DNA from: Hydrolagus affinis
Lineage: Eukaryota
Assembly (NCBI GenBank): GCA_012026655.1
Contig: JAAILG010000750.1
Location: 1 to 64,000 of the forward strand
Direction: 5' to 3'
Length of the DNA: 64,000 bases
Both the position numbers and the translations under genes were made by a program. How positions within the stretch are numbered: position 1 is the first letter of the stretch; the number at the start of each line of letters is the position of its first letter. The notes beneath the pieces were generated by a model. It searched no databases and was not told where the DNA came from. It saw only the letters and a program-made list of their open reading frames with translations. Below, piece after piece: positions 2,251 through 25,300 of this stretch.

Positions 2251-2330
2251 GTAAAATCCTCAACGATGATACCCAGATCAAAGATTACAAAATCGATGAG
2301 AAGAATTTCGTAGTGGTTATGGTAACGAAG
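2251..2330 (+). CDS. RAD23: RAD23 exon (UBL C-terminal part)
   Basis: tttcag|GTAAAATC...ACGAAG|gtaaat; (G)[26 protein letters not shown]. Confidence 0.95.
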
Positions 2331-3243
2331 GTAAATGAAATTGCGAGGGGTTTCTGGTGGGTGCTGTGAGTTAAAGCTGTCCTACTTTTTTCAGCCTAAA
2401 TTTGAATCTATTCCAAACAACACATCAGTACCTGTTTCTGCTAGCTATGTGGGTGCAATCTCAGATAGGACTAACTGGCAGTGTCATTCTGGCAGTATGG
2501 AGGGTTGGAGTCGAAATATTGCTGGTGTAGTTGGAAGTTGCAAGCAGGTTGAATGTGTATTCTGAGACTGCGCTCATGTCAAATGTGTTGCATTATTGGT
2601 GTTGATGTAATTCGGTTGTGACATTAAACCGATGTTCCATCTGTCTGTCCAAGTGGATGTTAAAAGTCTCAGAATATTATTAGAGAAGAGAAAGGTTTCT
2701 CTTGGCCAACAATTCTCCAGATAAGAGATGTTTGTTTATTTAATTGGATTTCCAATTGGAATCAAAGGCTATCTATTCTCTCTGGCATTTTATCCATTGG
2801 TGTCATCACTGAAGGAGGAGTTTTGATTTTGTTTGTGTATGTATTCAATGCATTTGACTTGATCGTAAACCTTTATTGCTTTTAAACAGCCTAAAGCAGC
2901 TTCTGTGCCTATACAGCCCTTGGCGCAGGCTTCTCCATCACCTACTCCAGCAAGTACCACAGCCGGTGCCTCCACCACAACCTCTACCCCTGCACCAGCC
3001 CCAGCTGCTGTTGTCCCTGCACCAACACTGGCACCAGTACCAGCCCCAGTTCCAGCATCAGAGCCTTCCAGTACAGCCACAGAGGAAAAGCCAAAGGAAG
3101 AAGAAACGAAAGAAGAAAGCAGCGCCACTCCTGAAGCAGCCCCAAGGTACAGGCCTGAGGGCTCCAGGGTTTCTGAGACACCCATCTCTAAGGTGGAGAA
3201 AAGCAGTAGGACTCCAGGCAGTTTTGGGGGACATTTTTTGATA

Positions 3244-3283
<40 letters not shown>

Positions 3284-6200: not shown

Positions 6201-9200
6201 GTTTAAGAGACAGGCATATAGTTGGGAATAATAATAATCCTTGTATTTGTATTGCAATTGACTGAACATTATTTTGCCCACAAATCTACAGTCAGTTTAC
6301 TTCAGTATATTCTGTAAAGCGCTTTGAGGCATCTAGAAGACCTGAAAGTACTATAGTCAAATGCAAGGATTATTATTATAATAATTATTATTAAATAGAA
6401 GATATACAGACAGAATGTGGAAATAGGATTGGAAAATCTGCCTTGATCTAATAAACTGGGTTCTTGCCCGGCATCTCTATCTCAACACCTACATTCAGTG
6501 AATTAGGATTGAGCTGGCTTTCAGGAGTTCAGCGGTCAAATACAGAGCTTACTTTGAGGTCTGTATGATTAAGAGCACTTTAGTTTCTAGCAGGTACCTG
6601 GTGCCACTGGAACTATCCTTTAATAGAAGGATGAATGAGACAAATTTCGTCAGGTTAGTAATGGATTGAGGGAGCCTGAAAGGATCCTGAACATGGAATA
6701 GCAAGTAAAATACTCTGAAACAACTGGCTTGTAGAAGTTGCTGTGTTGTGCATAAGGGAGCTGAATAAGCAGGTGTCATTATTGATAACATTTTCTCATG
6801 TCCGTTCACTCAGCAGTAAAGCCTGCCAAAATTGATTAAGATTCTGTTGATTGCTGATGCAATCAATAATATACTTAATATTATACTTTGTAAGTTGTTC
6901 GGTGTGGCAGGGGGTGCTTTGCCTTACCTGTGTGTAAAACATGAGTGACTTGGTTGGCATTTCCTTCTCAAAGGTGCTTATACTGGCCAGCAAGTCTTGC
7001 AGTGCATCTTTTGTGCCTTAAACATTTAAGACTAGCTAATTGTAAATTGTAAAAGTTTATATTTTTGTCAAGAATAATGTTTGCTCGCATGATTCAGGTT
7101 GTATTGCATCCATCCTTCTATTGTTCACCATGGTTAAAGGGACTTATTTCATAAGGATGCTGAATGCAAAATGTTACATGGTGTTTGAGCTATCTTGTGT
7201 TGCTGATATTTTAAACGTTGATTGCTATTCCACGCACCACAAAGGTGAGATGGGTCACTGGTGTACTTTGCTCTTTTGTTTAGGGAATTCCAGCAGAGCC
7301 AGAAATCCCAGAGGAACCACAGCCTCGAGTCACAACGCAACCACCATCACAACAGACATCGCAGTCTACACCAAGCAGTGAGTGCACTGTATAGTTGTGT
7401 GTGTATGTGAGGACTAGATCTTTATGTTGACCAATGATTAAAATGAATAGGAACACTGCAGTTTCCCTTTCCTTCCCCTCCACCCCCCCACTCCTATTTT
7501 CTGCTGCCTCTATCAGTGATTTTGGCCACTTGTGACGTAAGCAACTCCAATGTGTTTTGAACAGACTTGTGTTCTTTTCCGACTCCATTAGTGGAATTGA
7601 CAGGTGTTTTGAGTAGCCTATTGTCTGTGATTTTTTGGGTATTAGAATCTGTGGTAGCTTCACCAGCAGTACTGGGACCTTTGCACAGTTTCAGTATCAG
7701 CTAAAAAGCTTTGATAAATGTGACATATGGTCAGGGTATTATTCCCGTAGAGATCACAAGTAATGTGATGGGGATTTTGCTTAGGCAGAATGCAGAGGAA
7801 GTTTTGATAATTTCAGACTTTACAATCACCAAAGCTAAAGCTGGGTGAGTTGGCAGCACCACAAGTTACAAAGGGCAGATTAACAATAGGGTTTGTGGCT
7901 TGCAACTAATATCAGTTTTATTTTCTCACCAATCCTGCTTCCTGAACACCTGTGTTTTTCAGTGCTACAATTCCCTGGATGTGCTCTGGCTGCTTCCCCA
8001 AGTGGCCATTAGTTATGTGTGAGCTTCGACAAGGAATGGGCAGTTCATCCATGTGTTGCAATACAGCCAATTCAGATCGCATCTTCACCCTACATTTACA
8101 CATCATCTTTCAAGAAGGGTCAACAGAAACCCTTTTGGTTCCGTTTCTATCCACCCACCCACCCCCTACCCTTGTGGATTCAGAAATGGTGTGATCACAG
8201 AGATGAATGAGGCAGTACAAGCTGAGTAGACTAATAGGAAACCAACCCATTTATTTTAAGAATTTGTTAGGATAGAGTATATATAACCTGCTCGTTAGGT
8301 TTCTGAAACATGAGTGCAAGTGGAGCTGATTGGATTATAATATGCAAAAAGCCTAAAGTGTTCCTCCGTTAGGCTGACCTGACTGTAGATTTTACTTTAG
8401 ACTTTGATAACTACAATGTGTGAAGCTGCCTCCTTAAGGTGTTCGATGGTCTCATTCCAGGTAACCCACTAGAGTTTCTGCGAACTCAACCCCAGTTTCA
8501 GCAGATGCGCCAGGTTATACAGCAAAACCCATCACTATTGCCAGCCCTACTTCAGCAACTTGGTAGAGACAACCCAACGCTCCTACAGGTAGGATATTCT
8601 TTTATGCGTGATCTTAGACACCGGGTCTTTTGATTAGGCTAATTGATTTAGGGGTAGAGGGAGTGAGGTAGTATTAGTTTTGTCTAATCTTAGCCAGGTT
8701 TACACATTTTTCAGTCAGCACACCTGGATAATTTCAAGAAGTAGGACTCTTGGTTTATTTCTTCATTTAAAATTCATTAAAAAAAAGTTATTTTAAATTA
8801 AATTGAATTTTATTTAAAAAATTTATTTAAAATTTCAATTTTTAAATTTATTTTAAATTGAATTTTTTAAAGTTATTTTTAAATGAAAGGTTTTTAAAGT
8901 TATGCTAAAGATATGTTTGTTCACCTGGGTTTGCAGATTATCTGTTGTTTTGACCTGATTCAAACGAGAGTAGGACTCGTTTTGTTTTTTCCTTTTTCCC
9001 AGATTTTTGCGGGGCACAGACCACAATTAATTGACACCCTTATTCTCATCTCTGAAGAGTATAACCAAAAATGTTTCCACATCATACCTAAAGCACTTCA
9101 CTTTGATATTAATCTGGTGAATGCTTGCTGTGTGCTTGGTGTTTTCCCAGGATTGGTGTCCAAACTGAACCCAGTAGTCCAAATGAGGACCAACCAGTGC

Positions 9201-11819
9201 TCCTCTATCTGGAGGCACTATGTCCTTGTTGAGATCAGTGTGATGTGTGTATTCTATACAAGCTTATCCATGTCCACTATTGCTAAATATATTCCAGCAA
9301 ATAACTCAGCACCAGGAGCAGTTTGTTCAGATGCTGAATGACCCCGTTGGAGAGGTTGCAGGTGAAGGGGCAGAAGGTCATGGGTCACCGCACACTAACT
9401 ACATCCAGGTTACACCCCAGGAAAAGGAAGCAATAGAAAGGGTAAGTGGTTATGAATTGTGTGCGTGCGCATTTGTGCCAGTAAAAGTTGTCCAAGATCA
9501 TTGCAACTTTGCAATAACTGCAACTTTGATTTATATAGCACCCTCCAGGCCAGATGGCGTCTCAGAGCGCTTCACAATAACGGAGCCTGAGGCCGAGCTG
9601 GGGGTGGGTGGGGAGAAAGTGACTAGGCACAGTTGAACAGAAAGGTCTTCAGGCGCGACCTGAAAATGGAAAAGGAGTGGTGAGGCAGAGGGATTGAGGG
9701 AGGGAGTTCTAGAGTTTTGGGGCATAGTGGCTGAAAGCACGGCCACCGATTGTGGAGCGGAGGATTTGTGGGACGATGAGGAGGCCAGACCCAATAGAGT
9801 GGAGGCAGCGGGTACTGCTGTGAGGAGAGAGGAGGTTAGAGAGGTAGTGGGGTGCAGAGGAGTGGAGGGATTTAAACAAGAGTGAGGATCTTGGAGTCAA
9901 TCTGCTCTGTGACAGGGAGCCAGTGAAATTTGACAAGAGCTGGGGTAGGGTCTGTCGATATATCGATATATCAGTTATATCCGGAGACCAGGGTGTGGGG
10001 GGGGGGGGGGGAAGAGATGCGCGTGCACCTCCGAATGCACGAGCAGTACTAAAAACCCGATACATCGGTATATATCGATATATCTAAATTGGAAAATTTC
10101 CGTATCAACGGACCCTAGGCTGGGGTAATCGGGAAGTGAAGTTTGGTTTGGGTGAGAATGCGGGTGGCGGAGTTCTGTGTGAGCTGGATTTTGTGAATGG
10201 TGACAGAGGCTAGACTGGCAAGGAGGGCGTTGGAGTTGTCCAGCCGAGAGGTGACAAAAGGCATGAACCAGAGTTTCGGCAGGTTTTAGAGTGAGATATT
10301 GGCGGAGACTGGCGATGTGGCAGAGATGATTTGGAAATGTACCTGTGTTCCATCATCGGTGGCTGCGCTTTCAGCCATTATACGTACTCCTGGAATACTC
10401 TCCCTGTATCCCTCTGCCATGTCCCCTCGTTCCCCATCTTCAGGGCATGCCTGAAGACCTTCTTATTTGTCCATGCTTATGGTCACCTTTCGCACTGTCA
10501 AGCGCTCTTGGGCAATTCCCTGTTTAAACAACGCTTTATAATGCACGTTCTTGTTGTACCTTTTAAGAATGTTCATTTACTGAAGATGATTTTCTATCAG
10601 TGGTTCAGGAGCTTGTTTCTCCTGCCACACTAACCGAAGGATTTTATATTACCTGTGTGTTTGCTGATGACTGACTAAAACAAAGACTGATTTGAGTTTC
10701 GGGAAACATTCTTGTGCGAGACCTATTTTCACAAATTCTGACTCAAGAGTGTGGACACGTTCTACTTGACAATCTTCCTCAGCTTTGGCCCCTCTGCGGA
10801 CAGCACAGAATTGAGTGCTTTCTCACTGAGATCTAATTCCAAGGCTATTGAAATTAAGGAAATTGCATCAGTTGGTTGTATTCCACTATAATTTAATTAA
10901 GAGTACACAGATACTCAGAGTTGGTAGATTTTAATTGAGAAGATACAGGTAGAGGTGATGATTTGTTGACTCTTTATTGACTATACCTACAAATACATTC
11001 TAAAGATGAGCAACGAATGACAGTGTATTTTACCTGGGTGACTTCATGTAAACTATTTCAGCATTAGGCAGTTTTTCACTCTTCATTTGGTTGGATGCAT
11101 TCTTCCTATCTCTGAGACCAATATACTATGTATAGGGTGCTGCATGAATGCAGGTTGTACCCAGGTCTAAAAACTTCTATCTGGCCAGTGATACCTTACT
11201 ATAGTCCTGTTCAGGAGGCTGCAGAGACGACCATGGTCATATATCACTTTTCAGAGATATGCAAGCCAGCTGGCTGCATGAGGGTGGCTTGCACATTTCC
11301 AGTCAGTCCTCTGGCACATAAGAGTGAAGAGTCATTCATGGTCAAGATTAACAGGACGAAAGAGTTGCTTTGGCTGAAAAGCAGTGTTTACACAAGGAAC
11401 ATACTTTGCTCTTGAAGCTCACAATAGATAAAACAAGTACAGTATCCTGTAAAAAGAAACAAAAATATTACCTACAAATACACAGTCACTGCACTTTACA
11501 GTAAAATCTTTTGATGAGAAAGGCATTATACACAATGTAAGGTTTATCATAATAATAGTTATTAGATTAGTTTTTATTGAAAATAACTTGCACTTTTATA
11601 CTATTATTACATCAGAATTGAATAATTACCCGAGTGCAGTGACTGTTGATGTAGGCAAACGCAACAATGGTTGAATTTAACATTCCGTATTTTATTTTCT
11701 TGTAGTTAAAGGCGTTGGGTTTCCCCGAAGGACTCGTCATTCAAGCCTACTTTGCGTGTGAGAAGAATGAAAATCTTGCTGCAAACTTCCTCCTCCAGCA
11801 GAACTTTGATGATGAATGA
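2251..11819 (+). CDS. RAD23: UV excision repair protein RAD23 homolog (RAD23A/B-like), 5'-partial; 8 coding exons: 2251-2330, 2890-3146, 4982-5037, 5996-6123, 7284-7377, 8461-8588, 9298-9441, 11706-11819
   Basis: Spliced translation gives UBL end [30 protein letters not shown]1 [34 protein letters not shown]-binding [34 protein letters not shown] and UBA2 [37 protein letters not shown]. All introns are GT-AG with compatible phases. The first exons lie upstream of the window; A vs B assignment is uncertain. Confidence 0.96.
2605..2720 (+). mobile_element. old Deu-domain SINE fragment (SacSINE/AmnSINE-like)
   Basis: gacattaaaccgatgttccatctg...gtggatgttaaaag...tggccaaca resembles the Deu core (from memory) and the copy at 34066-34195. 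Confidence 0.5.
2890..3146 (+). CDS. RAD23: RAD23 exon (P/A/T/S-rich linker)
   Basis: aaacag|CCTAAAGCA...CCAAG|gtacag; [24 protein letters not shown]...EAAP; phase 2 end matches the next exon. Confidence 0.9.
3240..3282. repeat. (TA)n microsatellite
   Basis: atatatat... with one ac interruption. Confidence 0.95.
3722..4112 (+). mobile_element. tRNA-derived SINE (main family), near full length, with an L2-type tail inserted at ~3820-3885
   Basis: tRNA-like head gtagctcagtggttagagca (A box), body gtttgtggga..gcaattggct..cagtcaatttactttacagtata..gtgaagcgctttgaga, and (taa/tta)n tail. Confidence 0.8.
4530..4810 (-). mobile_element. SINE (main family), diverged
   Basis: Reverse orientation: ataataat..atccttgcatttgata...aaacttggtcaagtgctttaaccac. 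Confidence 0.7.
4982..5037 (+). CDS. RAD23: RAD23 56-bp exon before UBA1
   Basis: ttttag|ACCCTTG...ACATTAG|gtgagt; (R)[18 protein letters not shown](V). Confidence 0.9.
5996..6123 (+). CDS. RAD23: RAD23 exon (UBA1)
   Basis: cctcag|TTACAGGC...CTGACA|gtgagc; [43 protein letters not shown]. Confidence 0.96.
6230..6392 (+). mobile_element. SINE (main family) 3' fragment(s)
   Basis: cagtcagtttacttcagtatattctgtaaagcgctttgag...aaatgcaaggattattatt. Confidence 0.7.
7284..7377 (+). CDS. RAD23: RAD23 exon (linker)
   Basis: gtttag|GGAATTCCA...CCAAGCA|gtgagt; [31 protein letters not shown]. Confidence 0.9.
8461..8588 (+). CDS. RAD23: RAD23 exon (XPC-binding/STI1 domain)
   Basis: ttccag|GTAACCCA...CTACAG|gtagga; [43 protein letters not shown]. 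Confidence 0.96.
8760..8905. repeat. AT-rich low-complexity tract
   Basis: Almost entirely A/T, with repeated ttttaaatt(g)aatttt units. Confidence 0.8.
9298..9441 (+). CDS. RAD23: RAD23 exon
   Basis: ttccag|CAAATA...GAAAGG|gtaagt; [16 protein letters not shown]...[15 protein letters not shown]. Confidence 0.96.
9515..10330 (-). mobile_element. L2-type LINE 3' fragment interrupted by a hAT-like MITE
   Basis: Minus-strand translation [20 protein letters not shown]...[12 protein letters not shown] matches the L2 ORF2 C-terminus; the 3' tail is near 9520. Confidence 0.8.
9946..10117 (+). mobile_element. hAT-like MITE (short copy)
   Basis: TIRs TAGGGTCTGTCGATA / TATCAACGGACCCTA; 8-bp TSD agctgggg / ggctgggg. 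Confidence 0.85.
10340..10555 (+). mobile_element. L2-type 3' fragment
   Basis: [30 protein letters not shown] motif and an L2-like tail. Confidence 0.7.
11706..11819 (+). CDS. RAD23: RAD23 last coding exon (UBA2) with TGA stop
   Basis: ttgtag|TTAAAGGCG...GATGAATGA; [37 protein letters not shown]. Confidence 0.96.
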
Positions 11820-12311
11820 GTAATTTTCCCCTCCCCACCCCCCCCAACCCCCATGCTTTTTTTTTCTCCAGAGCCCGGCTCACTTTCTGTATCTGCAGTG
11901 GGTGGTTTTTGGTGAGGCCAGCTATAGTGTGCATTACCTGGCCACATGCGCATTGTGAAGTGCAGCACTGGAAAGCACGTATTTAAAACAAACAAACAAA
12001 CAAACCGAAGACGCAAGTATCCCTTTGGTCAGTCTATACTAGGTGACATATTACAGTTCATATTGACTATCCACTTTGGGAGGTGGGAGTGGGGTGGTGG
12101 GGAGTGGGCCTATATTCACAAAAGTTTCTGGAAAATATATATATGTGCACCAAAAAATTCCTAGCGCCTGAATTTTAAGATACAAAAAAAAAGCATCTGT
12201 GCCTTTTGTGAATATGGGCCTGGGTTTAAGATGAAAGTGGCCGAAGTTTGAGGTACTTCTGCAGAAGAATGTTTCAAATTTGCCTACAATCAGAATTATC
12301 AGTAATTTTTC

Positions 12312-12314
<3 letters not shown>

Positions 12315-12346
<32 letters not shown>
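12315..12346. repeat. (TG)16 microsatellite in the probable RAD23 3' UTR
   Basis: Direct read. Confidence 0.95.
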
Positions 12347-12352
<6 letters not shown>

Positions 12353-12482
12353 CACGCTTGTGTGTTTTGGGGGTTAGGAGAGGCTGGGGAAGAGGAGATG
12401 AGTACCGGATAAAGATTACGTGGGGTGGGTGGGAGGTGATCCAATCATTTTAGTGCTGACTGACCTGTGATTGCCATTCTGG

Positions 12483-12488
12483 AATAAA
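12483..12488 (+). terminator. candidate proximal polyadenylation signal AATAAA
   Basis: AATAAA followed ~30 nt later by GU-rich tgtgttgtgtctg. Confidence 0.4.
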
Positions 12489-15400
12489 GCTGGCAACTGC
12501 AATGATCACAACACTTGCCTGTGTTGTGTCTGCCAATGCAGCACTGCCCATAGTCAAGTAGGGAGAATTTCCCCCAAGTTGAAAGGTGCTGTATAAAAGC
12601 CTGTCTTGCATTGCTGTTTAGAAAGTATGTGTCGCAGTATGTCCCTTTTATAAAACCTGAAGCACAGTGTTTAAACAGCTGGCAATCACTGCGACAATTT
12701 CTTAGCTTGTCTGAGTGAGTAGCAACCCTCTGTTTGTTAGCTTACTCTCTAGTTCTGCACGTAGCTATTTGCTAATGATGTTCTACTCTGTGGCCTCTAT
12801 TCTTACTAGCACTAAACAACCCTGGTTTAGATAGACAAGTTGGTCATCTGCAGACTCTGACCAAGGTCAGAGTGTTCAAATGAATCATGAGCCCCATAGT
12901 GATAGTCCTTTCAAAATCAAGCCTACACCACCCTCTTAAAATGCACCCATGAGAGAGCAGTGAGTTCAGCGGAGAATGTTGGGCGGTAACAGGAGCCATA
13001 ACTGCTCCCAGGACACGTAAATGCTGTGAGATACACACAAGACTTTATACAATATTAATTTTCTCAATCTGCTGAATCATTGCCTTTGTAGATCATAATG
13101 AAGTGTATTATCTGAGCAAATGCAAGACATGGGGTTGATTTGGTTTAGAGGTGAAGGTTTTAATATATTTTCTCTGGCGGTGATTTGTGTGACCTGATGT
13201 GTGGTGTGGGTATGTGTGTGTGTTTTGCTACTCTTGACAGGCTAGAGAGGGTATTTTAATCCCCACTACACTTGTTACAGGGCTGCAATTACTGTTCTGT
13301 ATGTTACTGGTCCAGGACCAATAGAACTTAGACATTGTCATTATGAATGTAATACTCGTAAGTGGAGAAATGGTTTTGCATGATTACAAAGAGCAGGGGA
13401 GCTATGAAGCAGCTGTGGATTTTCAATTTGCCATCTTCATATGAAAACCCATGACTTTAACGTGCTTTTTTAAAAAAAACCTTGAGTAGCTTTACATTTC
13501 TGCTTCTCTTTGTGCAGAGCCATCACTGGGGTAATTGCCTGTGGTGAGCAGGTCCCACAATTGTGGTTTTTCTTTCTCCTTCCATCTAGATCGAGGTAAT
13601 GACACTTTCTGCTAGACTGAGTGGCTGCATGTTAATGTTGCCGATTGGAATCATTCAGACACTCGGTCCACGCAGTATGTTTGATTAGTATTAGTCCTGA
13701 TGTGCTTGTGTGGGGTCAGACAGCAGTGATGGCATACCTCTTCCAGCAAATATTGCTGTTAACTTCTAATCCTTGTTTCTTGACTTGTTGCTAGGAAATG
13801 AGCTGCTGTTCATCGTAAATCAAACTATTTTGACATTTGAATCTGATTTTTTTTGTATATGTGTAATCTGCATCAAACTTTCTTTAAAAAAAAAGTGTTA
13901 TGTAACCTTGATCAGTGAACTTTGAATTACACCCTGGATAGGCTGATGAGAAGAGATACTGTACTGTTTTTTTTTGTTTTAAACCCCCCCCACCCCCCCC
14001 CCCCCAAATTTACCGCTTAAGGTCACCTGCTTATAACCGGCATCTTAAAATGGACAAAATGCCGTTTTCTTTGTGTTCACTATGGGATTCTCGGTAAATA
14101 CTGTTAATTTAAGCCTTTTATTTTAAGGTTCACTTTTTGAGGAATGCAAAGTCATTGAATTTTATTTTTTAAAAAGCACCAGTTCAATCACCATCAACAT
14201 TAACTGTTCAGATTGCACCACGGGCACACTTTACAATGTGAGGTGTGAGCTCATCTTATCAATTCAAGATCCACATGCATAATTATTAAATTATTTTTCC
14301 TCCCACAATGCAAATATATATCACCCTTCTCTCAGTGGAATCTCCTTTCCCCTCCTCTTCCCATCTCCCTTTCCACACCCCCATTCCCTCCTCAGGACTG
14401 AATATTTGGGCAGCCTGTAGACCTTTAACATATCACCCACTTCACTTAGTGATTGCCTGTGCGTTTAACTGAATAACTTTGCACGATTGACTGATTGAGT
14501 CATTTTGGAGACAACTTGATTTGTTTATGCGCTGATTTTTATTTTATTTTATAAAAACCCGGGGATGGCTCCATAGTTATGAGAATACCAACAACTGTTT
14601 GGACTTTCATGTACAAAAATGAGCGACTAACTTGATGTGGGTTGGGTGGGGGCAATCACTGTCCGGAATTATTTGGTCAAGCACTTGGTGTATTTTTAAT
14701 AGGACTTTTGGTAAGCTTCCTGCAGCCTCACCATTTATATCACAACTGGAGAAAGCCTAGCTATTGGAAAGGGTCAACACTAAAGCCATCATGATTCTTT
14801 TGTTTTGTTTCCAGATCTTTGGACAGCTGGTAAAATAATGCCAGGGTTTATTTTTGGGCTCAATGATTGGAAGGGGTGGGTGGGGTAAACACCTGAAGGG
14901 GTCAGGTTCATTGTTTGACACCACTGTGGGCTGCCGAATTTGTATTTGCTGATAAACAGGCCTTGGAACTATAGCTGCTGGGGGTTGTGGATTCTTGCTC
15001 TTGCCCGTCTTTCCCTCTCTCTCCCTACACTGATATAGGAACACTAGAATTGTACGAATGCGGACTGGTATAATACACAGATCGCTTTTACTTGCTATAA
15101 GTAGCGTGCATATTTCTTTGGTTTGGTTTCAATCCACAAGTGAATTTCTGAACAGTAGTTGTAGATACTGCTTGAGCTGGGCACATGTTTGGCACTGGTG
15201 TGGTTCCTCTTCCTCCCCACACCCCAACCCCGATACCTGTTGGTACAAGCCTTCTAAGTTGCTGTCCCGTTGTATACTTGTTGCTCTTCAGAGCCACATT
15301 CTTTCCCCGGGAGCAAACAGCTACAGCCTCCTGAAGTATGCTTTACGCTGCCCCAAGATTGTGTGGGGTGTTTTGTTTTCTTACAAGTCCATTGCAAGTA

Positions 15401-15699
15401 CCCTCTGCCAGTGGTAATATTGGTCAGACCTTAACCGAACAATTCCTGCACCAGTTATTTTGATATTAATTCTCTGAAGGAGCAGAACAGAACCACCTTC
15501 ACATTTTCTTACACCGGTGATAAAAGATTATCTTTGCAGTTAACCTCCATCTTCAGCCTGTGAATCGCTTTGCCCTGTTAACACTTTCTTCTTATCAGTC
15601 AGAATGAATTGTAAAGCCCCAGTCATGCATCGGGTACCTTTTACGTTAGAGCTAATTTGCTGAATGTTCCTGGGATTCATAATGTTTCAGTGTTAACTC

Positions 15700-15705
15700 A
15701 ATAAA
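15700..15705 (+). terminator. distal polyadenylation signal AATAAA
   Basis: AATAAA followed by tttatcagtctttttgggatgtttttcc; SINE sequence resumes at ~15870. Confidence 0.55.
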
Positions 15706-16339
15706 GGCTTTTTACAAAGCTTTATCAGTCTTTTTGGGATGTTTTTCCTCTGCATTTGGAGGATATTTTGTTTGAATACCCTTATTGGTGTTGTCAGTAA
15801 CATTTCAGCGCCATGTTAATTCAGCTGCACATTCATTCACTTCTCTTGGAGAATTGTTTGGAATTGATAATAATAATAATCCTTGCATTTGATATATTGC
15901 CTTATTGTCAACAAACTAGTCATGCTACTTTATAGGATATACTTTGAAGCATTTTGAGATGTCTCAACAATGTCATCAACAATGCTACAAAAACACAGCC
16001 AGAATCTGGTGTTGTGTATCTTGAACAGTTCCAGAGGAGTTCAGTTTGCGGGACGGAACAGAATGGGGTGGTTGGGGGGTGGGGGGGCAATGTTTCAACT
16101 GTTTGTCTGTGCATTCCACATTACATTGGGGGTTATTTCTCAGCTGTTACTTTGTCAGATTCCTTAACTGACTGACACTTAACTGACTTTATTCTCCTTT
16201 TTGGAAACAAAAGTGTTTAGAACTACTTTGATGCTATAGAGCATTTATATAAGGCATTGTGCACTTGATATGTCACATTTACAATTATTTTCTACTCCCA
16301 TATGATTTTGCTGCTCAGGACAGTTTAATGTCTGACCTT

Positions 16340-16354
16340 CCAGCAGGTGGCGAT
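16340..16354 (+). promoter_or_regulatory. candidate CTCF site
   Basis: CCAGCAGGTGGCGAT resembles the CTCF core; lies between the RAD23 poly(A) signal and the EPS15L1 promoter. Confidence 0.4.
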
Positions 16355-17064
16355 GTCCAACCATTCTGTGGAGATGTGCATGGACTGATGTTCCTAGCCA
16401 GTTTCTACACCCTCAACTGAATTTAAACAATACTTGAGTGACATTAGAATCCTCGCATGTTTAATGTAAACCAGAAACTACAATAAGAGATCACAGACTC
16501 TAGCTCAGAAACATGAGGCACGACCAGATGCTGATTTAATCTAAACCTCAGGATGCTGTATCGAAGAAAATTATTTTAAGAACACTCAGAAGAAAGTACA
16601 GTACTTGAATTTTTAAAGTGCCTCAACATGTCAAAACATCTCTTGGTCTAATACTTAGTTAAGTGGCAGATTTTTGTAGGCAGCCCATTTGCATCATAAA
16701 TAATTCATGTTGTGAATTGGTGGCCAAGACACTGGGGGTGGGGGGGAGGAATCTTTTTGAATTGTGTCACAAGTTTTTTAACCTTCACCTGAATAGCCAG
16801 ATAACACCTCATTTCAATGTCACCTGTGACGATGTAGCGTTTCCCCAATACTGGGATGTTATCCTATGAAATGCAGACCTCATTGTAGGACTTCCAACAC
16901 ACATCCTTCTAACTTAAAGGCAAGCCAAAATGATACAGGCATCTTGGCCTCACTGCCGTTCTCGATGCTATACACATTTTTGACCAGTTGGATTTTATTT
17001 AAGGTAGTTTTGCCTCCATTGGGAATAGTTTCTTGCTACAACAAAACTACTTGCAATTATATAG

Positions 17065-17380
17065 TGCTCTGAACGTAAAGTGCCTCCGAGCGCTTAACCT
17101 TGCTGGATCTGGACTCCCCAAGATTGCAGGGAAGGGGGGCTGTAGGTGGCCAAAGGCACGGTCGAAGAGGAAGATCTTCAAGTGGGCCTTGAAAACAGGG
17201 AGAGGGCCAAGGCGGAGGGACTGAGGGAGTGTACCTGAGTGGGTGAGATGAGCGCCGCCATTTTCAGGAGGGAGGGAGGGAAGCCGGGGAGTGTTCCAGT
17301 GTTTCGGGGTGTAATGGCTGAAAGCGTGACCCCCAATAGTGGGGTGGAGGGTGCGACTGACGAGTAGGAGATCGGTGCGC
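17065..17380 (-). mobile_element. L2-type 3' fragment hosting the exon-1 copy
   Basis: gaagaggaagatcttcaagtgggccttgaa...ttccagtgtttcggggtgtaatggctgaaagc is the reverse complement of the L2 end motif seen at 10360-10470 and 18250-18365. Confidence 0.7.
17229..17291 (-). other. inverted duplicate of EPS15L1 exon 1 (5' UTR end + ATG + donor)
   Basis: Reverse complement ctccccggcttccctccctccctcctgaaaATGGCGGCGCTCATCTCACCCACTCAGgtacac versus 18761-18821: 3 substitutions and 2 single-base indels. Confidence 0.9.
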
Positions 17381-17894
17381 CAGTTAAGCAGAGAAATTCC
17401 CTAGGTAGAAACTCCCGAGGGGTGAATCTATTAAAATAAGTTAATAGTGATGGCTACCTAATAAGTAGGAAAGAGTGCACAAGCTAAGGCCCAGGGGGAT
17501 GATTTTCATTAAAGTACCTGCTCACCCTTAACCCCCTCCCTCCCATGCTCTCTGAATCCCTCCGCTGTGACTCCTCCCTCCCCACTTTCAAATCCCGCCT
17601 AAAGACCTTCTTGATCATGCTTATGGGTCCCTGCCCCACCCTCCACCCCTGGCTTGGGATCAGACTCCTCCACGGGATCAAGGGATCAGGTCTCTACCCC
17701 AGCACAGAAGGCGCTACGGTAAAAGCAAGTTGTGTTTAATTGGAGTCTCCCAAGATCCTAAAACCCCCAAAAAACTGCTGTCAGTCTGAACCAGGAGCTG
17801 CAGATTCTCAACATTGCAGGCGCTGGCGGCATCAACCTCTATGGTTGCACACTTGACCTCACCAAGCCAGTCAGGAACTGAGGTGTTTTGTTTG

Positions 17895-18520
17895 ATCCTC
17901 AACTTTCTTCCCCCACATCCAAGCCATGACCCGCTCGGCCTTCCCTCACCTCCGCAATATTGCCCGACTCCGCCATTACCTTACCCCTAAGGCTTCTGAA
18001 ACTCTCATTCATGCCTTCATTACACCCCGGCTTGACTATGTAAAAGCCCTGCTTGTCGGCCTTGTCCGACTCCATTGGCTTCCCCATCACTCAGAGGATT
18101 CAATTCAAGATCCTGGTCCTCACATTCAAAGCCCTCCACGGCTTAGCCCCACCCTACATCCGTGACCTCCTAACCCCCTACCAACCTGCCCGCCCCCTCC
18201 TACTCCACAGCCTGCTCCACGTCCCCTGACCCACCTGCCCCACCATCAACGGGCGAGCCTTTGCCCACTCTGCCCTCAACGTCTGGAACTCCATCCCACA
18301 TTCCCTCTGCCTCGCCCCCTCCCTGGCCTCCTTCAAGTAGCGCCTCAAGACCCGTCCTCTTCAACGGTGCCATTGGTCACCCGAAAACCCCCCCTTTCCT
18401 TCCCCCCTCCCCGTCCCTGACCTCAGCTCGGTTCTGAAACAATGACTGTCCAGGGGCTTGGGACGTTCTCCTGAACTGAAAGGCGCTGTCTGTACAAGTG
18501 TCATTTTGTTGTTGTTGTTG
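17895..18520 (+). mobile_element. L2-type LINE 3' fragment abutting the EPS15L1 promoter
   Basis: AFPHLRNIARLRHYLTPKASETLIHAFITPRLDYVKALLVGL (L2 ORF2 C-terminus), frameshifted; ends in (ttg)n. Confidence 0.85.
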
Positions 18521-18544
18521 CTGAATTCCATTGACAACAATCAA

Positions 18545-19320
18545 CACACGTGGGAGGAGGAGGTGGGGAAGAGCAATAGCTTACGCTGGGTGCGTGCGTG
18601 CCCTTGCGTGATGACGTCGGGGAGCTCCGCCACCACGTGACCTACGACGCCCAGTGACGGCGACGACGCTGCCCCCGCCGCCCCGCATGCGCATTGACGC
18701 TGCGTCTCGAGCGCAGGTGGCGGCGGCGGCCAGTACGCGGCTCCTGCTCCCGGCTTCCCGCTCCCGGCTTCCCTCCCTCCTCCTGAAAATGGCGGCGCTT
18801 GTCTCACTCACTCAGGTACACACCGAGGGCGACCCCTGACCGTGAGGCGGGGTGGGGATGAGGGGGGGTGGGGGTGGAGAGTGCGGTGGCGAACGAGAGA
18901 GAGAAGAAAGAGACCGAGCAGTGAGTGGTAAAAGGCAGCCAAGCGTTGATTGTCCTTCCCCCCCCCCGCGAGCTCGAGCAATAATACTGTAGCGGAAGGA
19001 AGAGGCGGAGGTGGGGGGGTTGTGGGGGTGAAAGGGACGAAGCGTCACCGCGGGCTGCGGAGGCGCTAGGCCACGGGAGGGCGGGCGGGCAGCCACACAG
19101 TCAGTCAGTCAGTCACCGGCTCGTTGAGTGCAGGCGGACCCCTCGGCCCCGCGCCGGCACAGGGTGTGAGCCCGCCCCGGCTACACTACTTTGTGACCGT
19201 GAGTGGGTGGGTGGGAGCAATCGGCCGGCCCGCCTTCCCTCCCTCCCTCCCTCCCTCATTGCCGGCGGCTCCGGCTGTCAAGAGATATTAAGGCGGAATC
19301 GACCGAGGCTACACCGACCA
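18545..19320 (+). promoter_or_regulatory. CpG-island promoter of EPS15L1
   Basis: GC- and CpG-rich block around exon 1: E-boxes CACGTG (18547, 18634), CRE-like TGACGTC (18612), NRF1-like CGCATGCGCA (18684), YY1 motif AAAATGGCGGC (18786-18796) overlapping the ATG. Confidence 0.85.
18789..18815 (+). CDS. EPS15L1: EPS15L1 exon 1 (coding part)
   Basis: aaaATGGCGGCGCTTGTCTCACTCACTCAG|gtacac; MAALVSLTQ within the CpG island. Confidence 0.9.
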
Positions 19321-22300
19321 GTTTTTGTTGGTGGGGGGTGGGAGGAAGGGAGTAAATGACCTGTCTGTGCCAGGGGGTTGTGACTGCTGTACCTGGGGAG
19401 CGAATGTATGTATGAATTGTGTGGTGCGGCACGTTTGATGTCTAGGTCAAACCTGAGACTGTCTTGTGTGTGTGTGTGTGTCTCTCTCTCTCTGATCACT
19501 TGTCACAAAGACATGTCGCCTTCTTTGTGTTTTCTGAGAAAGTTGCCCATGGTTGATGATTGTCACCTTCTTGAAACTTCCTATTGGGAAGAAAGGGGCA
19601 CAGAAGCTGATGTGTGAAGCGAGGGAAGCTGCTGTCTCAAATGTTTGTATCATATCTATATATGTAGTTATATAGTTATAGTGCCTGGTCTGTTAAAGCA
19701 GCATTTTAAACTTTTTTTATCCTGACTACGGGTTATCATAGTTCAGTGAGTATAGTGCAGACTGACACTTTGGCATGGCACTGATTTATTTTGGTCCATG
19801 TAGTTTTTTTTTACGTGTCGAGTCTTCAACCGTGCCATCGGACAGTCCCCTTCTCGCCACCCTCACCGATCTTGACCCCCAGCTCGGGTCCTAACAGTCC
19901 AGCTCCTTGGGATATCCTCCCAACGTGAAAGGCGTTATACAAATGTAATTTTGTTGTTCTAGTTGACTGGTGGCTGTTTGATTGTATATCCAAGCCCAAT
20001 CCTGTTCTCAACTGGTGCCTGCAATTCCACCAGGAGTCACAGAGTAGCTGATTCTACATTTCCCAGTGTTTGAGAATACTGAAGACTGTTGTGTCAGCAC
20101 CCTCTCCTTCGTCTGTCCAACTCAGCACAGGTTAAGAATCGAGGTAATTCAGTGCCATATCTTGTGGTGCTGTTAATCAGAGTCTTTAGAGAAGCTTCTA
20201 ATTTGTTTTAATCTGATGTGAAAGAGCAGGCAAGGCCAAGAGAACATGCTGATTGTAAATGGCCAGAGCTATTCGTAGGTTAGTAGGACACTGAAATGCC
20301 GGACTCTTCCTCCAAAAGTGGTACTTGGCAACATTATCAATGAGGATTTACATTGCCATAAATGGAGCTCATTCAGCAGGTTAGCTGAATATTTATGTTA
20401 GAAGTCCCTGGAAGTGCAATACATACGAAGTCGACACAGAAGATCATTGTAATCTTATTTACCAAGTGGGAGTGGTTTCATTTGCAAAGGAGTGCTTCAA
20501 ATATTGGATTTTGACTTGCAACATCCATTGCACCTTTTAGATGCAACAATTACTCATTTTATGGTACTTCATGATCATGCTTTGCACATATGGTTTGCAA
20601 TGGCTTGGCCTGAAGTTAGGAAATTAATGAGAGTGTTGCAGATGATAGATTTAAAAATAACCAAATTTAAAGCTCATTTGGCCAAATCTGTGTAGGAGAC
20701 CTGATTTGAATCCATGATTTTCTGTGTTCTGGAGGTTTCAATGGTATATCTGCTGTCACTTAAATAATCAAAAAGTATTTGACAAAGTTCCATGCAGGAA
20801 TCTACAATTGAAAAGTTAACAAATTGGTTGCATTTGCAAACTAGTTAAGCAGCAATAACAACAAAATTGCATTTGTTTATCGCCTTTCACGTTGAGAGGA
20901 TGTTCCTGGATAATAAGTGTTTTGGAACAAAGCTGGGGGTCGGGATCAGGGAAGGTGCGGGGGTGGGAACGGAGGGTGATCGAAGGCATGGTTGAAGAGG
21001 AGGCTCTTGAAGGAGGGAAGGGGCAGGTGGAGAGACTGCGGTGCGGGGTGGAGGTCCAAAGAGTGGCTGAAGGTGGGGCAGGTGAGGTGAGGGATGTGAA
21101 GCGGGCCAGAGTCTGGTGAGTGGAGGGCAGGTTGGTAGGAGGTTAGGAGTTCGCAGAGGTAGTGTGGAGCAAGGCCATGGAGGACTTTGAAGGTGAGGAC
21201 AAAGATCTTGAAATCTATCCTCTGTGAGAATCCAGTGGAACCGGGCGAGGATAAGATCACGGAGCCTGATGTGGGAGAGCTCTGGGTGATCTGCAGCCTT
21301 TGGAGGGAGGAGTTAGGAAGGCCGACAAGGAGGGAGTTTGCATAATCAAGACTGGGTGTCATGAATGCATGTATGAGGGCTTTGGCGCCCTGTGGTATGA
21401 GACGGTGATGGAGCTGGGTGATATTGCAGCAAGGTTTGTGTTCTACAAGGATCTGTTCTGATACCACAAAGTTCATACTATTCTGAAATATGTAGGATTG
21501 CACTTTATAGCACCAAAATAAAATTTGCTGATTACTAAGTTATCTGGCCAGATGGTGAGAAGAAAAGAGATTGATAATATCCAGAGGGATTTGAGCCAAT
21601 TTAGCAGATGTGCTAAGGAGTGACAGATGGATTTCAGTGTGGATAAGTGCAATGCATATTTAACAAGAAACCTGTGTAAATGAAGAAGTATTTATTCACA
21701 ATGAAGCAAATCAGATACCGAGATGTAATAGGAGAGAGTTTGACAAAGTCAAAATCTGTTATCCTGTGTGTTTAGATGTTTAGAATGTGTTGTGCGTTTT
21801 GGTTATAATAATACTAATAATACTCCTTGGATTTGATTTGCACCTTATCACATCTTCAAGACGTCTCAAAGGATGTCACAGAATATATTGTAAAGTGAAT
21901 TGACTGTCAATCATTGGAAATAGTTCATTGAAGAAAGGCAATTGAAAAAGAGAAAGACTGATGAGCCATGATATAGGATTTTAAAATATGAACTGTATAG
22001 AAAAAATGTATGTGAGCCAGCTGAGGCTATTTGTTCAGTGAAGAAGGGTAGACTTAGAAGGCACAAGAACAACATTTACAATGCTCCAGTGTGATTAGAA
22101 CGAACTTATTTTGCCACATAAGGTTGACGATATAAACCAACACCCCAGATAAATCAGTTTAATACTGAGTTGGTTGTTTATTTTAAATTTGGATACGTAT
22201 CTGTTTGTTGAAGATCTTGAGGGCCAACGGACAGATGGGCACATCTTCAGTAAATGGGATGGCTGTGTTACTATGACTACTGTAGTTGGAAGATAGATGA

Positions 22301-25300
22301 TCAGGGTTGAACATTTGGATGATTGTGGAGTGTATGTAAGGTTACACTATGTGTAATGCGTTCAATGGCCTTTAATTTCTGCCTTTATGTTCTACTAGAG
22401 ATTTTGACCTCTTTAATAGAGCTGCAACTTCTCTGATATTCTTTCTCTCTTTGAAAGCTATGGTCACATTGGATATTTTAAATTTAAAATGATAGTATTG
22501 TGAACTGTACAATTCTGCATCAACTTATACTGATATGGTCAAAAAGACAATCTACTTGTTAAACCTACAGTGCCCTTTAATGATAAGAATAAATCTCACA
22601 TTTGATATGTGGTGCCTATCATGTTGAGATGTCTCAAAGCGATTCACAGAATATACTATAAAGTGGATTGACATACAGTATTTTGTATGCGAAACGCGTG
22701 ATGGATACTTGAAAAAGTATGCTATCGTTTTGCCTCTTTCGTTCATTTTGTGTCAAAGATGCAATGCGTTTAATGTTATTGTTAATGTCATTTTTTAAAG
22801 CTTTCAGTTCTAAAGTCTTTGTTATGAATGTCCTGTGATTTGACCCCTAATTGATATTGTACTTGGTTTGGGGGTACAGTATTTAATGTTGTATACATCT
22901 TAGGAACATGATTGTTTCCCTCTGAAGCTGTTATATTGCTGTGAGAATATGCTTTATTGTTTATTGGGGAGGACAAGTTTGCAGGGCTACCGGGAGTAGG
23001 ATTGATTTGGATAACTTTTCAAAGAGCTGGCATATACACGATGGGCTGAATGGCCTCCTTCTCTGCTGTATAATTCTTTGATTCTAATAGTATGGAACAT
23101 GAGAAATAGAAGTTTACATAAATATTTACATTTTTCGAACAATATTTACATTGACTAAAAGGACGTCATATAATAACTTTATGCAATTTCATTATTTTTT
23201 GACTGACATATTTTGGCAACTAACAGCTTTCACAGTTCAAGAATTTAAAAACTCAAATGTGCTGAAGCAAAAATGTAACTTGTGTACAGAAAATATTGTA
23301 AAAATAGTTTAGTGGTGTGTCAAACTCTGCATCCTCTGCAGCACAAACTGTCATAGAAAACCATCTAAGTTGAGCTGTCTTTTGGAACTGGCTTAGGGAA
23401 TGTGTGTCCTGATTGAGAGTACAGTAAAAGTCTGTTTATCCGGCACCCACGAGACCTGGCCAATGGAGGTTAAATGGCATGCCGAATATTCAGTCGGATC
23501 CGACTCCGAAAACCCAACACAAAAAAATTAACTTATTAACACATACCATATTAATACAGCAGAAGCCTGTTTATCCGTGACTCGAACTGGCAGTTCCGTA
23601 TAACTGGCACGCCAAAAAAAAAGTCCCCATTCGATAAACCAGAACTTATCCGGAACAATAACAGTGCAGCATTTGTAAATGCATAAATAATAACATAATA
23701 ATAGAATATTGTATTGGTACTTATTGTTAAAACTACTCTCTTGCACTTCTCACCTTTGCTGGTAGATGCTGTGCTTGAAGCCATGATGCTGTGATTGAGG
23801 TTTATAGTCCAGCGATTCTTTTTAAAATGGAGCACGTGGGTAAAAAAAACGGCAGCGCGATTTTAAAGCCATACCAGCAGCAAGCCAATAACGCTAGCTG
23901 ATAACTAGGGTCCGGTTAAATCGATATAATTTTCATATTGATATGCCGATATCGGAATTTAAAATTTATCGATATATCGAAAAATTCAATACGAAAAAAA
24001 ATCGATATATCGCAAATATCGGTATATCGTGTCCGGCGATATATCGGTATATATCGGTATGATGCGGACTTTTTCAACTTACCTTGTCGATATCCGAATG
24101 CTTGCGTACACCGGAATGCGCGCGCACCTCCGAATGCGCGCGCTTTTCCGAATGCCTTCGCATGTGCAGGACAAAAAAAAATGCAATATCGATATATCGG
24201 TATATATCGATATGGGCAAAACGATATATTGATATTGGAAAATTTCAATATCGACGGACCCTACCGATAACCCACATTGTCGCGCAGGTGCAGTATTTCG
24301 GTTTGGTGCTGGTAGAGTCCAGTAGATCCCTGCCCCTGCTCGGTCCCGGGAAGCACTCTGAGATGCTGTCCGGCATGGAGGGCGCTATATAAATCGAAGC
24401 TGTTGTTGTTGTTGACTGTAAGCCTCAATCAGTAAAGGTGAGAAGCGCAAGAGAGTAGTTTTAGCAATAAGTACCAATACAATATCTTGTTATTATCTGT
24501 TATTATTTAGTCTGGTGTGTATGGTGTGTGTTAAAAGAACTTCATATTTTTTTGTGGTGGGTTTTCGGCCGTGGGCATTTTTTGTCCCGGCATTGGCCAG
24601 GTCCCGCAGTTGCCGGATAAATGGGCTTTTACTGTAATAAACTAAATAATAACAGATAATAACAGACCTTTGTTATTCACCTAAAAATCACCTTTGCTGG
24701 TAGATGCCTGGTTTGAAGCCATGATGGTGGGGTGGAGGTGTACAATCAAAACGGCAGCGTGACTTTAAGGCTCTACTCGCGGCAAGCCAAAATACCGATG
24801 CAAGGGAAAACAATGGCAGGCTGACTTTAAGCCTCTACTAGCTTGGCAAGCCAAAATACCTGTTCATACTCTTGTGCGACAATCTATTCATTAAAAGCGC
24901 CACCGCGATTGTGCCGGATAACATCCGGTTATATGGAAGTTCCGGTTGATCGAGTCACGGATAAATGGGCTTTTACTCTAATTTGTAACTTAGGTTAGCA
25001 TACAAGAGTTCAATTAATGCAACTTTTTGACTTCTCACACAATAATATGAATGTCATTACTCAAGAAAATATGAAGTCTTGGAAGTTTAGAATCTCAGCC
25101 ATCCTTTTGGTGAGATTCTGAAAGTTGCAGGTTCAGGTTCTATTTCTGTAGGATCAATGTTGTCTGAATGCAGTAGGTCAGGATTGAAGAGTGGTGTGTT
25201 AGTATTGAATAAAATATATCCTACATTTTTCATTTAATTAACTTTGAGGAGTTGATCAGGGCATATTTGTTTAGAGTATCTCTTTGGGCAAGGAAAGAGT

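What the first reader, a model, noticed from the sequence alone, without database searches (positions are those of the whole stretch)
17225..17294. Inverted copy of EPS15L1 exon 1 (ATG, YY1 site, splice donor) inserted 1.5 kb upstream with microhomology at both ends
Seen: 17229-17291 is the reverse complement of 18761-18821 with 3 substitutions and 2 single-C indels. On the minus strand it reads ...cctgaaaATGGCGGCGCTCATCTCACCCACTCAG|gtacac (MAALISPTQ plus an intact donor). It interrupts an L2 fragment and is flanked by an 8-bp direct repeat gggagtgt (17225-17232 and 17287-17294); gtgt matches one end of the template and gggag the other. It includes intron bases, so it was not copied from spliced mRNA. 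Inference: a locally templated insertion by template switching or polymerase-theta-type end joining; the inverted L2 pair at ~17140-17360 and ~18240-18370 may have helped the fold-back. CTT-GTC versus CTC-ATC suggests an ancestral CpG that decayed differently in each copy. Possible function (speculative): a sense ATG/U1 site on divergent promoter transcripts, an extra YY1 site, or an antisense element in RAD23 read-through RNA that could pair with the EPS15L1 start region.
Basis: partly seen in the sequence, partly recalled or inferred. Interest (0 to 1): 0.75.

Follow-up and report, generated by a model that had tools for sequence, protein, structure and literature searches.

The report
Repair scar copying EPS15L1 start exon
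A 60-base backwards copy of the EPS15L1 start exon sits inside an old retrotransposon 1.5 kb upstream of the gene in a chimaera-like fish; it is real and shared by related organisms, and is likely an ordinary, decaying scar of DNA break repair.

Summary
The copy is real. 17229-17288 is the reverse complement of 18763-18821 (5'UTR end, the 9-codon EPS15L1 exon 1, 6 intron bases): 3 substitutions, 1 indel, far above chance. It splits a LINE 3' fragment exactly in register. Contigs of 4 of 4 laid runs bridge it, two of them about 3% diverged, and only the orthologous contig covers its core. So it is neither an artefact nor part of the repeat consensus. It meets the testable criteria of repair-mediated duplications (Pace 2009, PMC2671141). 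It fails the published definition of polymerase-theta insertions (template within 50 bp). The 8-bp flanking repeat is probably not a target duplication, because a sister LINE copy matches the empty site without one. The neighbouring inverted LINE lies 470 nt out of register. Function is unsupported: one relative lost the ATG and YY1 core, and differences accumulate at the flank rate. No RNA data were available. The scan noted similar inverted start-exon copies in other genomes (unchecked). Verdict: new member of a known kind, low interest.

The parts
17229..17288 (-). Inserted copy (acceptor), 60 nt: end of the 5'UTR, the 27-nt coding exon 1 and 6 intron bases of EPS15L1
   Evidence: bridged by contigs in 4 of 4 laid runs
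17259..17261 (-). Copied ATG inside a YY1/TISU-like motif; changed in organism A (17259, plus 17257 in the motif)
   Evidence: motif requirements from PMC2518114 passages
17229..17237 (-). Copied 5' splice site (exon|intron between 17235 and 17234); 6 of 9 match to the consensus, equalled or beaten by 14 other of 180 minus-strand GT sites
17289..17349 (-). Host LINE 3'-end fragment, 5' half (profile positions 4-62); L2/CR1 label recalled
17145..17228 (-). Host LINE 3'-end fragment, 3' half (profile hit 17229-17145, positions 64-151); high-copy repeat
   Evidence: repeat depth
17225..17232 (+). 8-bp direct repeat, copy 1; probably 4 LINE bases plus the last 4 copied bases
17287..17294 (+). 8-bp direct repeat, copy 2; probably 6 LINE bases plus the first 2 copied bases
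18763..18821 (+). Donor segment in the EPS15L1 CpG island (CpG o/e 0.99 at 18560-18860, 0.41 in the whole window)
18789..18815 (+). EPS15L1 coding exon 1, MAALVSLTQ; intron 1 starts at 18816; exon 2 at 44915
18232..18385 (+). Neighbouring LINE 3' end, inverted relative to the host; out of register with the donor by about 470 nt
15700..15705 (+). Candidate distal poly(A) signal of the upstream RAD23 gene (ubiquitin, UBA, XPC-binding, UBA exons at 2238-11816)
   Evidence: use of the signal not tested

Best explanation
A 60-base stretch of the EPS15L1 start region sits reversed inside an old LINE fragment 1.5 kb upstream; it is likely a repair-mediated duplication, made when a germ-line break was patched by copying nearby chromosomal DNA, and is probably functionless and decaying. 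Shown: the copy, its single nearby source, the split LINE, the direction source to copy, its presence in related organisms, and the loss of its signals in one of them. Inferred: a break or stalled fork in the LINE left a 3' end. That end primed on the donor through a few, probably slipped, matching bases, most simply by the resected downstream arm folding back on itself, which gives the inverted orientation. It copied about 60 nt, let go and rejoined the other end (SDSA-like or microhomology template switch; enzyme unknown). The allele was then fixed before the sampled lineages split, and has since drifted, partly by CpG decay.
For: Match far above chance. LINE halves contiguous at profile 62|64; 4 LINE copies spanning the site lack it. 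Donor 1474 nt away, no poly(A), intron bases included. Pace 2009 found 824 of 1,136 TE-interrupting duplicons within 5 kb, peaking near 1.2 kb, with donors including 5'UTRs, exon/intron pieces and TF sites, and an inverted exon example. Bridged in 4 of 4 runs; at 17242-17259 only the orthologous contig is laid. The source keeps the shark sequence; the copy has V5I and L7P, and organism A still has the source base at 17242. Organism A: 17259 and 17257 remove the ATG and YY1 core. Organism C: 17253, a CpG transition. Placed differences: 3 of 60 in the copy vs 18 of 744 in flank for X3 (p 0.20); pooled X3+X11 4 of 120 vs 41 of 1561 (p 0.56).
Against: No empty orthologous site was seen; all 4 runs carry the insert, so the junctions rest on sister LINE copies. 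In the simplest (no-duplication) reading the in-register microhomology is only 0-1 nt, and the 3-4-nt matches need slippage. The neutrality test has little power (60 nt, two informative lineages). One search hid 137 difference rows, so 5 X3 and 2 X11 differences are unplaced; I counted them as flank. The window, X1, X10 and X11 show no listed change in the ATG, YY1 core or donor. Five of six changes are G.U-compatible in an antisense duplex. Sequence alone cannot tell a DNA template from a local nascent RNA.
Confidence: 0.8

Rival explanations
1. RNA-templated patch: the break was filled by reverse transcription of the first ~60 nt of nascent, unspliced EPS15L1 RNA still held at its locus.
For: The donor starts 22 nt before a TISU-like motif, an element placed up to +30 from the start site (abstract start), and ends 6 nt into intron 1, as a promoter-proximal transcript might (inference). 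One of the two possible priming geometries uses the sense strand or its RNA. RNA-templated break repair exists in human cells (PMC12065846 abstract).
Against: The start site is unknown here. Any 59-nt donor holding both the ATG and the splice site must start within about 32 nt of the ATG, so the fit is not independent. The published signature is homologous repair with whole-intron loss, not ectopic patches. DNA-templated proximal duplications are common.
Confidence: 0.06
2. Same origin, but now used: an antisense element in RAD23 read-through RNA that pairs with the EPS15L1 start codon and 5' splice site, or an extra YY1, ATG or U1 site on divergent transcripts.
For: It lies 1.5 kb past a RAD23 poly(A)-like signal, with ATTAAA at 17430 and 17508 after it. 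All 3 window substitutions keep pairing as G.U; 5 of 6 changes across lineages do (7/64 = 0.11 by hand). Retained in 4 of 4 runs.
Against: Organism A lost the ATG and YY1 core and has one pair-breaking change. No excess conservation. On the divergent strand, 23 ATGs, one ATTAAA (17735) and 9 equal or better donor-like sites lie before the copy. Strong pairing (-126 kcal/mol) is expected of any near-perfect inverted 60-mer.
Confidence: 0.06
3. Canonical polymerase-theta templated insertion, or a fold-back guided by the inverted LINE pair.
For: Inverted orientation, short matches near both junctions, and an inverted LINE between acceptor and donor.
Against: TINS templates lie within 30-50 bp, primary tracts are rarely over 10 nt and AT-rich. 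The LINE pair is 62% and 77% identical and about 470 nt out of register.
Confidence: 0.05
4. Captured by the LINE's own reverse transcriptase through an RNA template switch when the LINE inserted.
For: The copy is sense to the host LINE, and an 8-bp direct repeat flanks it.
Against: It would need the LINE to land 1.5 kb from the captured gene. The copy differs from its donor at 3 of 60 sites (95% interval 1-14%), while host halves are 62-83% identical to sister copies. The upper bound does overlap the per-lineage LINE divergence.
Confidence: 0.02
5. Assembly artefact or part of the repeat consensus.
For: None found; it sits among repeats.
Against: Bridged by independently assembled contigs of 4 runs from 4 studies, two with their own substitutions inside it; no repeat depth over its core.
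Confidence: 0.01

Closest known systems
Repair-mediated duplications (RDs), Pace, Sen, Batzer and Feschotte 2009, PMC2671141
   Same: TE split by an insert of 50 bp or more; single donor within 5 kb (here 1474 nt, published peak near 1.2 kb); no poly(A); donors include 5'UTR, exon/intron and TF-site sequence; an inverted exon copy is described (ACSBG2); found in fish (80 in zebrafish).
   Different: Cartilaginous fish were not among the 11 genomes surveyed. At 60 nt it is at the short end (published mean 162 bp). Its donor joins a start codon, a YY1-like motif and a splice donor. No orthologous empty site was available here.
Polymerase-theta templated insertions (TINS), Carvajal-Garcia 2020, PMC7165422
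   Same: Locally templated, inverted products occur, primed at short or absent microhomology.
   Different: Template within 30-50 bp, short and AT-rich tracts; here 1474 nt away, 60 nt long, 63% GC.
MMBIR-type templated insertions (MMB-TI), Osia 2021, PMC8421209
   Same: Inverted copy of a nearby template, with microhomology or microhomeology; seen as germline variants.
   Different: Templates were searched only within 100 bp; this donor is about 15 times further away.
Doublets (short paired duplications; Thomas et al., known to me only as cited in PMC2671141)
   Same: Short local duplication proposed to arise from imperfect break repair.
   Different: The original paper was not seen; its size and identity criteria were not checked.

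Membership tests
Repair-mediated duplication (Pace 2009) | TE interrupted by 50 bp or more, same repeat and orientation on both sides, consensus positions within 30 bp | tested here: met
   60-nt insert; both halves on the minus strand, profile positions 62 and 64. The profile came from three window copies, not a curated consensus.
Repair-mediated duplication (Pace 2009) | Donor more than 50 bp and less than 5 kb away on the same chromosome | tested here: met
   1474 nt
Repair-mediated duplication (Pace 2009) | Insert found at only one other place in the genome | tested here: inconclusive
   Single partner in the window, and only the orthologous contig on 17242-17259 in 4 of 4 runs. No whole genome was held, and an unexplained contig lies on 18794 in X3 and X11.
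Repair-mediated duplication (Pace 2009) | No poly(A/T) tail; not a retrocopy or nested TE | tested here: met
   No tail, includes 6 intron bases; no Rfam match at 15500-19500
Repair-mediated duplication (Pace 2009) | Junction marks of repair (microhomology, filler, deletion or short duplication) read against an empty site | tested here: inconclusive
   No empty orthologue. Against sister copies, either a clean insertion with 0-1 nt in-register and 3-4 nt slipped matches, or an 8-bp duplication needing two extra indels.
Polymerase-theta TINS (Carvajal-Garcia 2020) | Template within 50 bp of the break | tested here: not met
   1474 nt vs definition
Polymerase-theta TINS (Carvajal-Garcia 2020) | Short (rarely over 10 nt), AT-rich primary tract | tested here: not met
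   One 60-nt tract, 38 of 60 G+C (counted)
Polymerase-theta TINS (Carvajal-Garcia 2020) | Dependence on POLQ | not testable with these tools
   Fixed ancient allele
Retrotransposed or RNA-templated insertion | True target-site duplication | tested here: inconclusive
   The 8-bp repeat exists, but 6 of 6 uninterrupted copies spanning the site have a 10-nt segment there, and the 47790 copy equals host-left plus host-right.
Retrotransposed or RNA-templated insertion | Spliced sequence, or a 5' end at the transcription start | tested here: inconclusive
   Not spliced; start site unknown, no CAGE data
TISU/YY1 element (Elfakess and Dikstein 2008) | Motif positions 5-12 intact, in sense just downstream of a start site | tested here: inconclusive
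   Motif intact in the donor and in the window's copy; two of these positions changed in organism A's copy; position relative to a start site and binding not testable.

The most novel reading that the evidence does not exclude
The insert is a germ-line fossil of RNA-templated break repair in cis. The first ~60 nt of a paused, unspliced EPS15L1 transcript (start site to just past the first splice donor) was reverse-transcribed into a break 1.5 kb upstream. Recurrent inverted start-exon copies near promoters would then be a class of their own, marking where nascent RNA patches nearby breaks.
Probability: 0.06. Interest if true: 0.7.

Novelty: new member of a known kind. Interest (0 to 1): 0.15.

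Why it matters
As most likely read, it matters little. It is one more repair-mediated duplication, in a lineage (chimaeras) not covered by the 2009 survey, and a tidy example of a start codon, YY1-like motif and splice donor being duplicated and then lost by drift. It would matter if a genome-wide census showed that such donors begin at transcription start sites more often than chance: that would point to nascent RNA or open promoter DNA as a preferred patch template in the germ line. It would also matter if read-through RNA from RAD23 used the copy to damp EPS15L1.

Tried and rejected
No whole genome is held for this window, so a genome-wide census and copy count were not possible. No RNA holder was listed; this says nothing on expression. 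An exact scan of metagenome contigs for a 21-nt stretch shared by copy and donor gave 0 hits. Callorhinchus milii protein models lack this exon 1 (0 of the 7 whose N-terminus I saw), so they could not polarise codon 4. Pfam on 4 decayed LINE reading frames gave 0 hits. The atlas search gave unnamed clusters and only a low-score PF09004 lead (0.82, 18% of members), so the L2/CR1 label rests on recalled motifs; the repeat nature itself is shown. Rfam: 0 matches at 15500-19500. Rejected: 8-bp target duplication as the preferred reading; fold-back through the LINE pair; artefact; consensus membership. I first took the similarities at 23420-24982 for a second templated patchwork, then dropped that after seeing terminal-inverted-repeat-like ends; they are not used as evidence. 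The only other non-repeat pair among the 10 rows (24750/24812) is a tandem inside that cluster. Paper searches for this locus (EPS15L1 with Callorhinchus; EPS15L1, RAD23A, antisense, readthrough) listed nothing relevant by title and abstract start. Searches gave nothing usable. Earlier scan notes: none near this place or with this sequence.

Full report
Observation. The reverse complement of 17226-17288 aligns to 18763-18824 at 92% over 63 nt, E 1.5e-17. Its local score is 98; 200 dinucleotide shuffles of the 5 kb downstream reach at most 30, and the next-best real place in the window scores 39. The substitutions are at 17250, 17249 and 17242, with one extra C near 17272. The arms are 1474 nt apart.

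Setting. Exons at 2238-11816 carry ubiquitin, UBA, XPC-binding and UBA domains, the RAD23 layout (5 of the 7 pieces scanned had hits, four of them these RAD23 pieces). The exon at 58949-59110 is 98% identical to Callorhinchus milii EPS15L1 and at most 86% to the other listed vertebrates. The window therefore comes from a chimaera-like fish, with a few residue differences from C. milii. The source exon codes MAALVSLTQ, ends at 18815 and joins in phase 0 to exon 2 at 44915. [11 protein letters not shown] begins 5 of the 120 listed homologues, all sharks. The copy reads MAALISPTQ, so both amino-acid changes are derived in the copy, and the direction is source to copy. The donor lies in a CpG island (o/e 0.99 against 0.41 for the window).

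Host repeat and junctions. A profile built from three LINE 3' ends of the window gives 12 hits. Two are the halves of the host, at profile positions 4-62 (17349-17291) and 64-151 (17229-17145), so the insert splits the repeat in register. The L2/CR1 name is recalled from motifs, not shown by a call. Of the other 10 hits, 6 span the site and 4 do not. All 6 have a 10-nt segment between the conserved CTGGA-like block and the next block (read by eye; loose for the copy at 55456), and the copy at 47790 has ACACTCTCCC, exactly host-left (6 nt) plus host-right (4 nt). The simplest reading is thus a clean 60-nt insertion, 17229-17288, with no target duplication. The 8-bp direct repeat then arises from LINE bases plus the first two and last four copied bases. 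The price is that in-register microhomology falls to 0-1 nt, and the 3-nt and 4-nt matches near the junctions must be slipped or accidental.

Other organisms. I laid 4 of the 11 listed runs (four studies, all contigs). Each has one contig bridging the insert: X1 17149-17600, X3 16800-17603, X10 17127-17430, X11 17173-17374, with 2-8 gap letters, far fewer than 60. X1 and X10 are nearly identical to the window. X3 (organism A) and X11 (organism C) differ by about 2.9% and 2.7% (51 of 1768 and 24 of 884 letters, summed by hand from table 8). At 17242, 17253, 17257 and 17259 the total depth equals that of the orthologous contig alone, while the LINE flank at 17124-17204 has thousands-fold depth. 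The insert is therefore real, older than these splits, and not part of the repeat consensus. No run shows an empty site among the rows displayed. In X3 the copy has the source base at 17242, and changes at 17259 and 17257 remove the ATG and two positions of the YY1/TISU core (positions 5-12 are the ones reported as needed; PMC2518114 passages). X11 has a CpG transition at 17253 and keeps the ATG. Placed differences are 3 of 60 in the copy against 18 of 744 in the flank for X3 (Fisher p 0.20), and 4 of 120 against 41 of 1561 pooled (p 0.56). This fits neutral drift but has little power. The tool hid 137 difference rows; 5 X3 and 2 X11 differences in these contigs are unplaced and were counted as flank, so the copy's counts are lower bounds. 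For the X3 donor, 12 of 22 differences are listed; one (18765) falls in the copied 5'UTR part and none in the coding exon.

Mechanism. Inferred: a break or stalled fork in the LINE left a 3' end that primed on the donor, copied about 60 nt and rejoined. If the minus-strand end of the downstream arm primed, the template is the same strand folded back after about 1.5 kb of resection, which explains the inversion without strand invasion. If the plus-strand end of the upstream arm primed, the template is the sense strand, or in principle its RNA. Sequence cannot separate these. Capture during the LINE's own insertion is unlikely given the proximity and the lower divergence of the copy (3 of 60, 95% interval 1-14%, against 62-83% identity of host halves to sister copies), though the upper bound overlaps.

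Function. On the divergent strand the copy is preceded by 23 ATGs, an ATTAAA at 17735 and 9 donor-like sites as good or better; unspliced it gives a 27-codon frame. For an antisense role, the copy lies 1.5 kb past a RAD23 poly(A)-like signal with two ATTAAA after it. All three window substitutions keep pairing as G.U, and 5 of 6 changes across lineages do (chance 7/64 by hand); the sixth, in organism A, breaks a pair. That is a weak hint only. Expression was not testable.

Comparison with what is known. Pace et al. 2009 (PMC2671141; abstract, parts 1-5 of 7 of the main text, and passages; supplements not opened, and Table S1 may hold orientation counts) define repair-mediated duplications as TE-interrupting inserts of 50 bp or more with one donor. 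Of 1,136 such human inserts, 824 had the donor within 5 kb, peaking near 1.2 kb, and none of 39 inspected had a poly(A) tail. Donors included 5 5'UTRs, 4 partial exon/intron pieces and 22 TF sites; one exon was copied in the opposite orientation; zebrafish had 80. This insert meets the size, register, distance and no-tail criteria; single-copy status and junction marks remain partly open. It does not meet the polymerase-theta definition of a template within 50 bp with short AT-rich tracts (PMC7165422 passages), and it lies beyond the 100-bp search range used for MMB-TIs (PMC8421209 passages). RNA-templated repair is documented in human cells with whole-intron loss as its signature (PMC12065846 abstract and outline). 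I found no paper on this locus in two searches. The scan's own notes list similar inverted start-exon or splice-site copies in other genomes, including a shark APCDD1 and a V-ATPase gene; these are unchecked and not counted as support.

Verdict. A real, shared, probably neutral repair-mediated duplication: a new member of a known kind, interest 0.15. The boldest reading not excluded, a patch reverse-transcribed from nascent start-proximal RNA, has about 6% probability and would deserve 0.7.

Noticed in passing
window 23420-23890 and 24421-24982: Cluster of inverted and direct 24-89-nt similarities (77-100%) in EPS15L1 intron 1, with TA-flanked terminal-inverted-repeat-like ends at 23420 and, reversed, near 24636 and 24975; probably decayed copies of a non-autonomous DNA transposon, with a palindrome-rich element at about 23900-24270 between them.
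   Followed up: partly
window 18794 (table 4): In X3 (depth 41.9) and X11 (depth 142.1) one further contig lies on the donor's start motif with one letter left out. It may be another gene's start motif or a further partial copy; its extent was not shown.
   Followed up: no
window 17149-17430 (table 8): X1 and X10 are both 4 letters shorter than the window over the insert region, and X3 has about 8 extra letters in 16800-17603; the places were not listed and could lie in the insert's TCCC repeats.
   Followed up: no
window 18789-18815: The conserved GC-rich EPS15L1 exon 1 (MAALVSLTQ, as in sharks) is missing from all 7 Callorhinchus milii protein models whose N-terminus I saw; they start with other sequences, which suggests a gap or mis-annotation there.
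   Followed up: partly
window 11817-15725: RAD23 has AATAAA at 12483 and 15700 after its stop, suggesting alternative 3'UTRs of about 0.7 and 3.9 kb, ending only about 3 kb before the EPS15L1 start.
   Followed up: no
window 18742-18784: The EPS15L1 5' region holds short tandem pyrimidine-rich repeats (two 14-nt copies, then TCCC units), an unstable stretch that may account for the indel between copy and donor.
   Followed up: no
window 52930-53029: A 100-N assembly gap inside EPS15L1.
   Followed up: no
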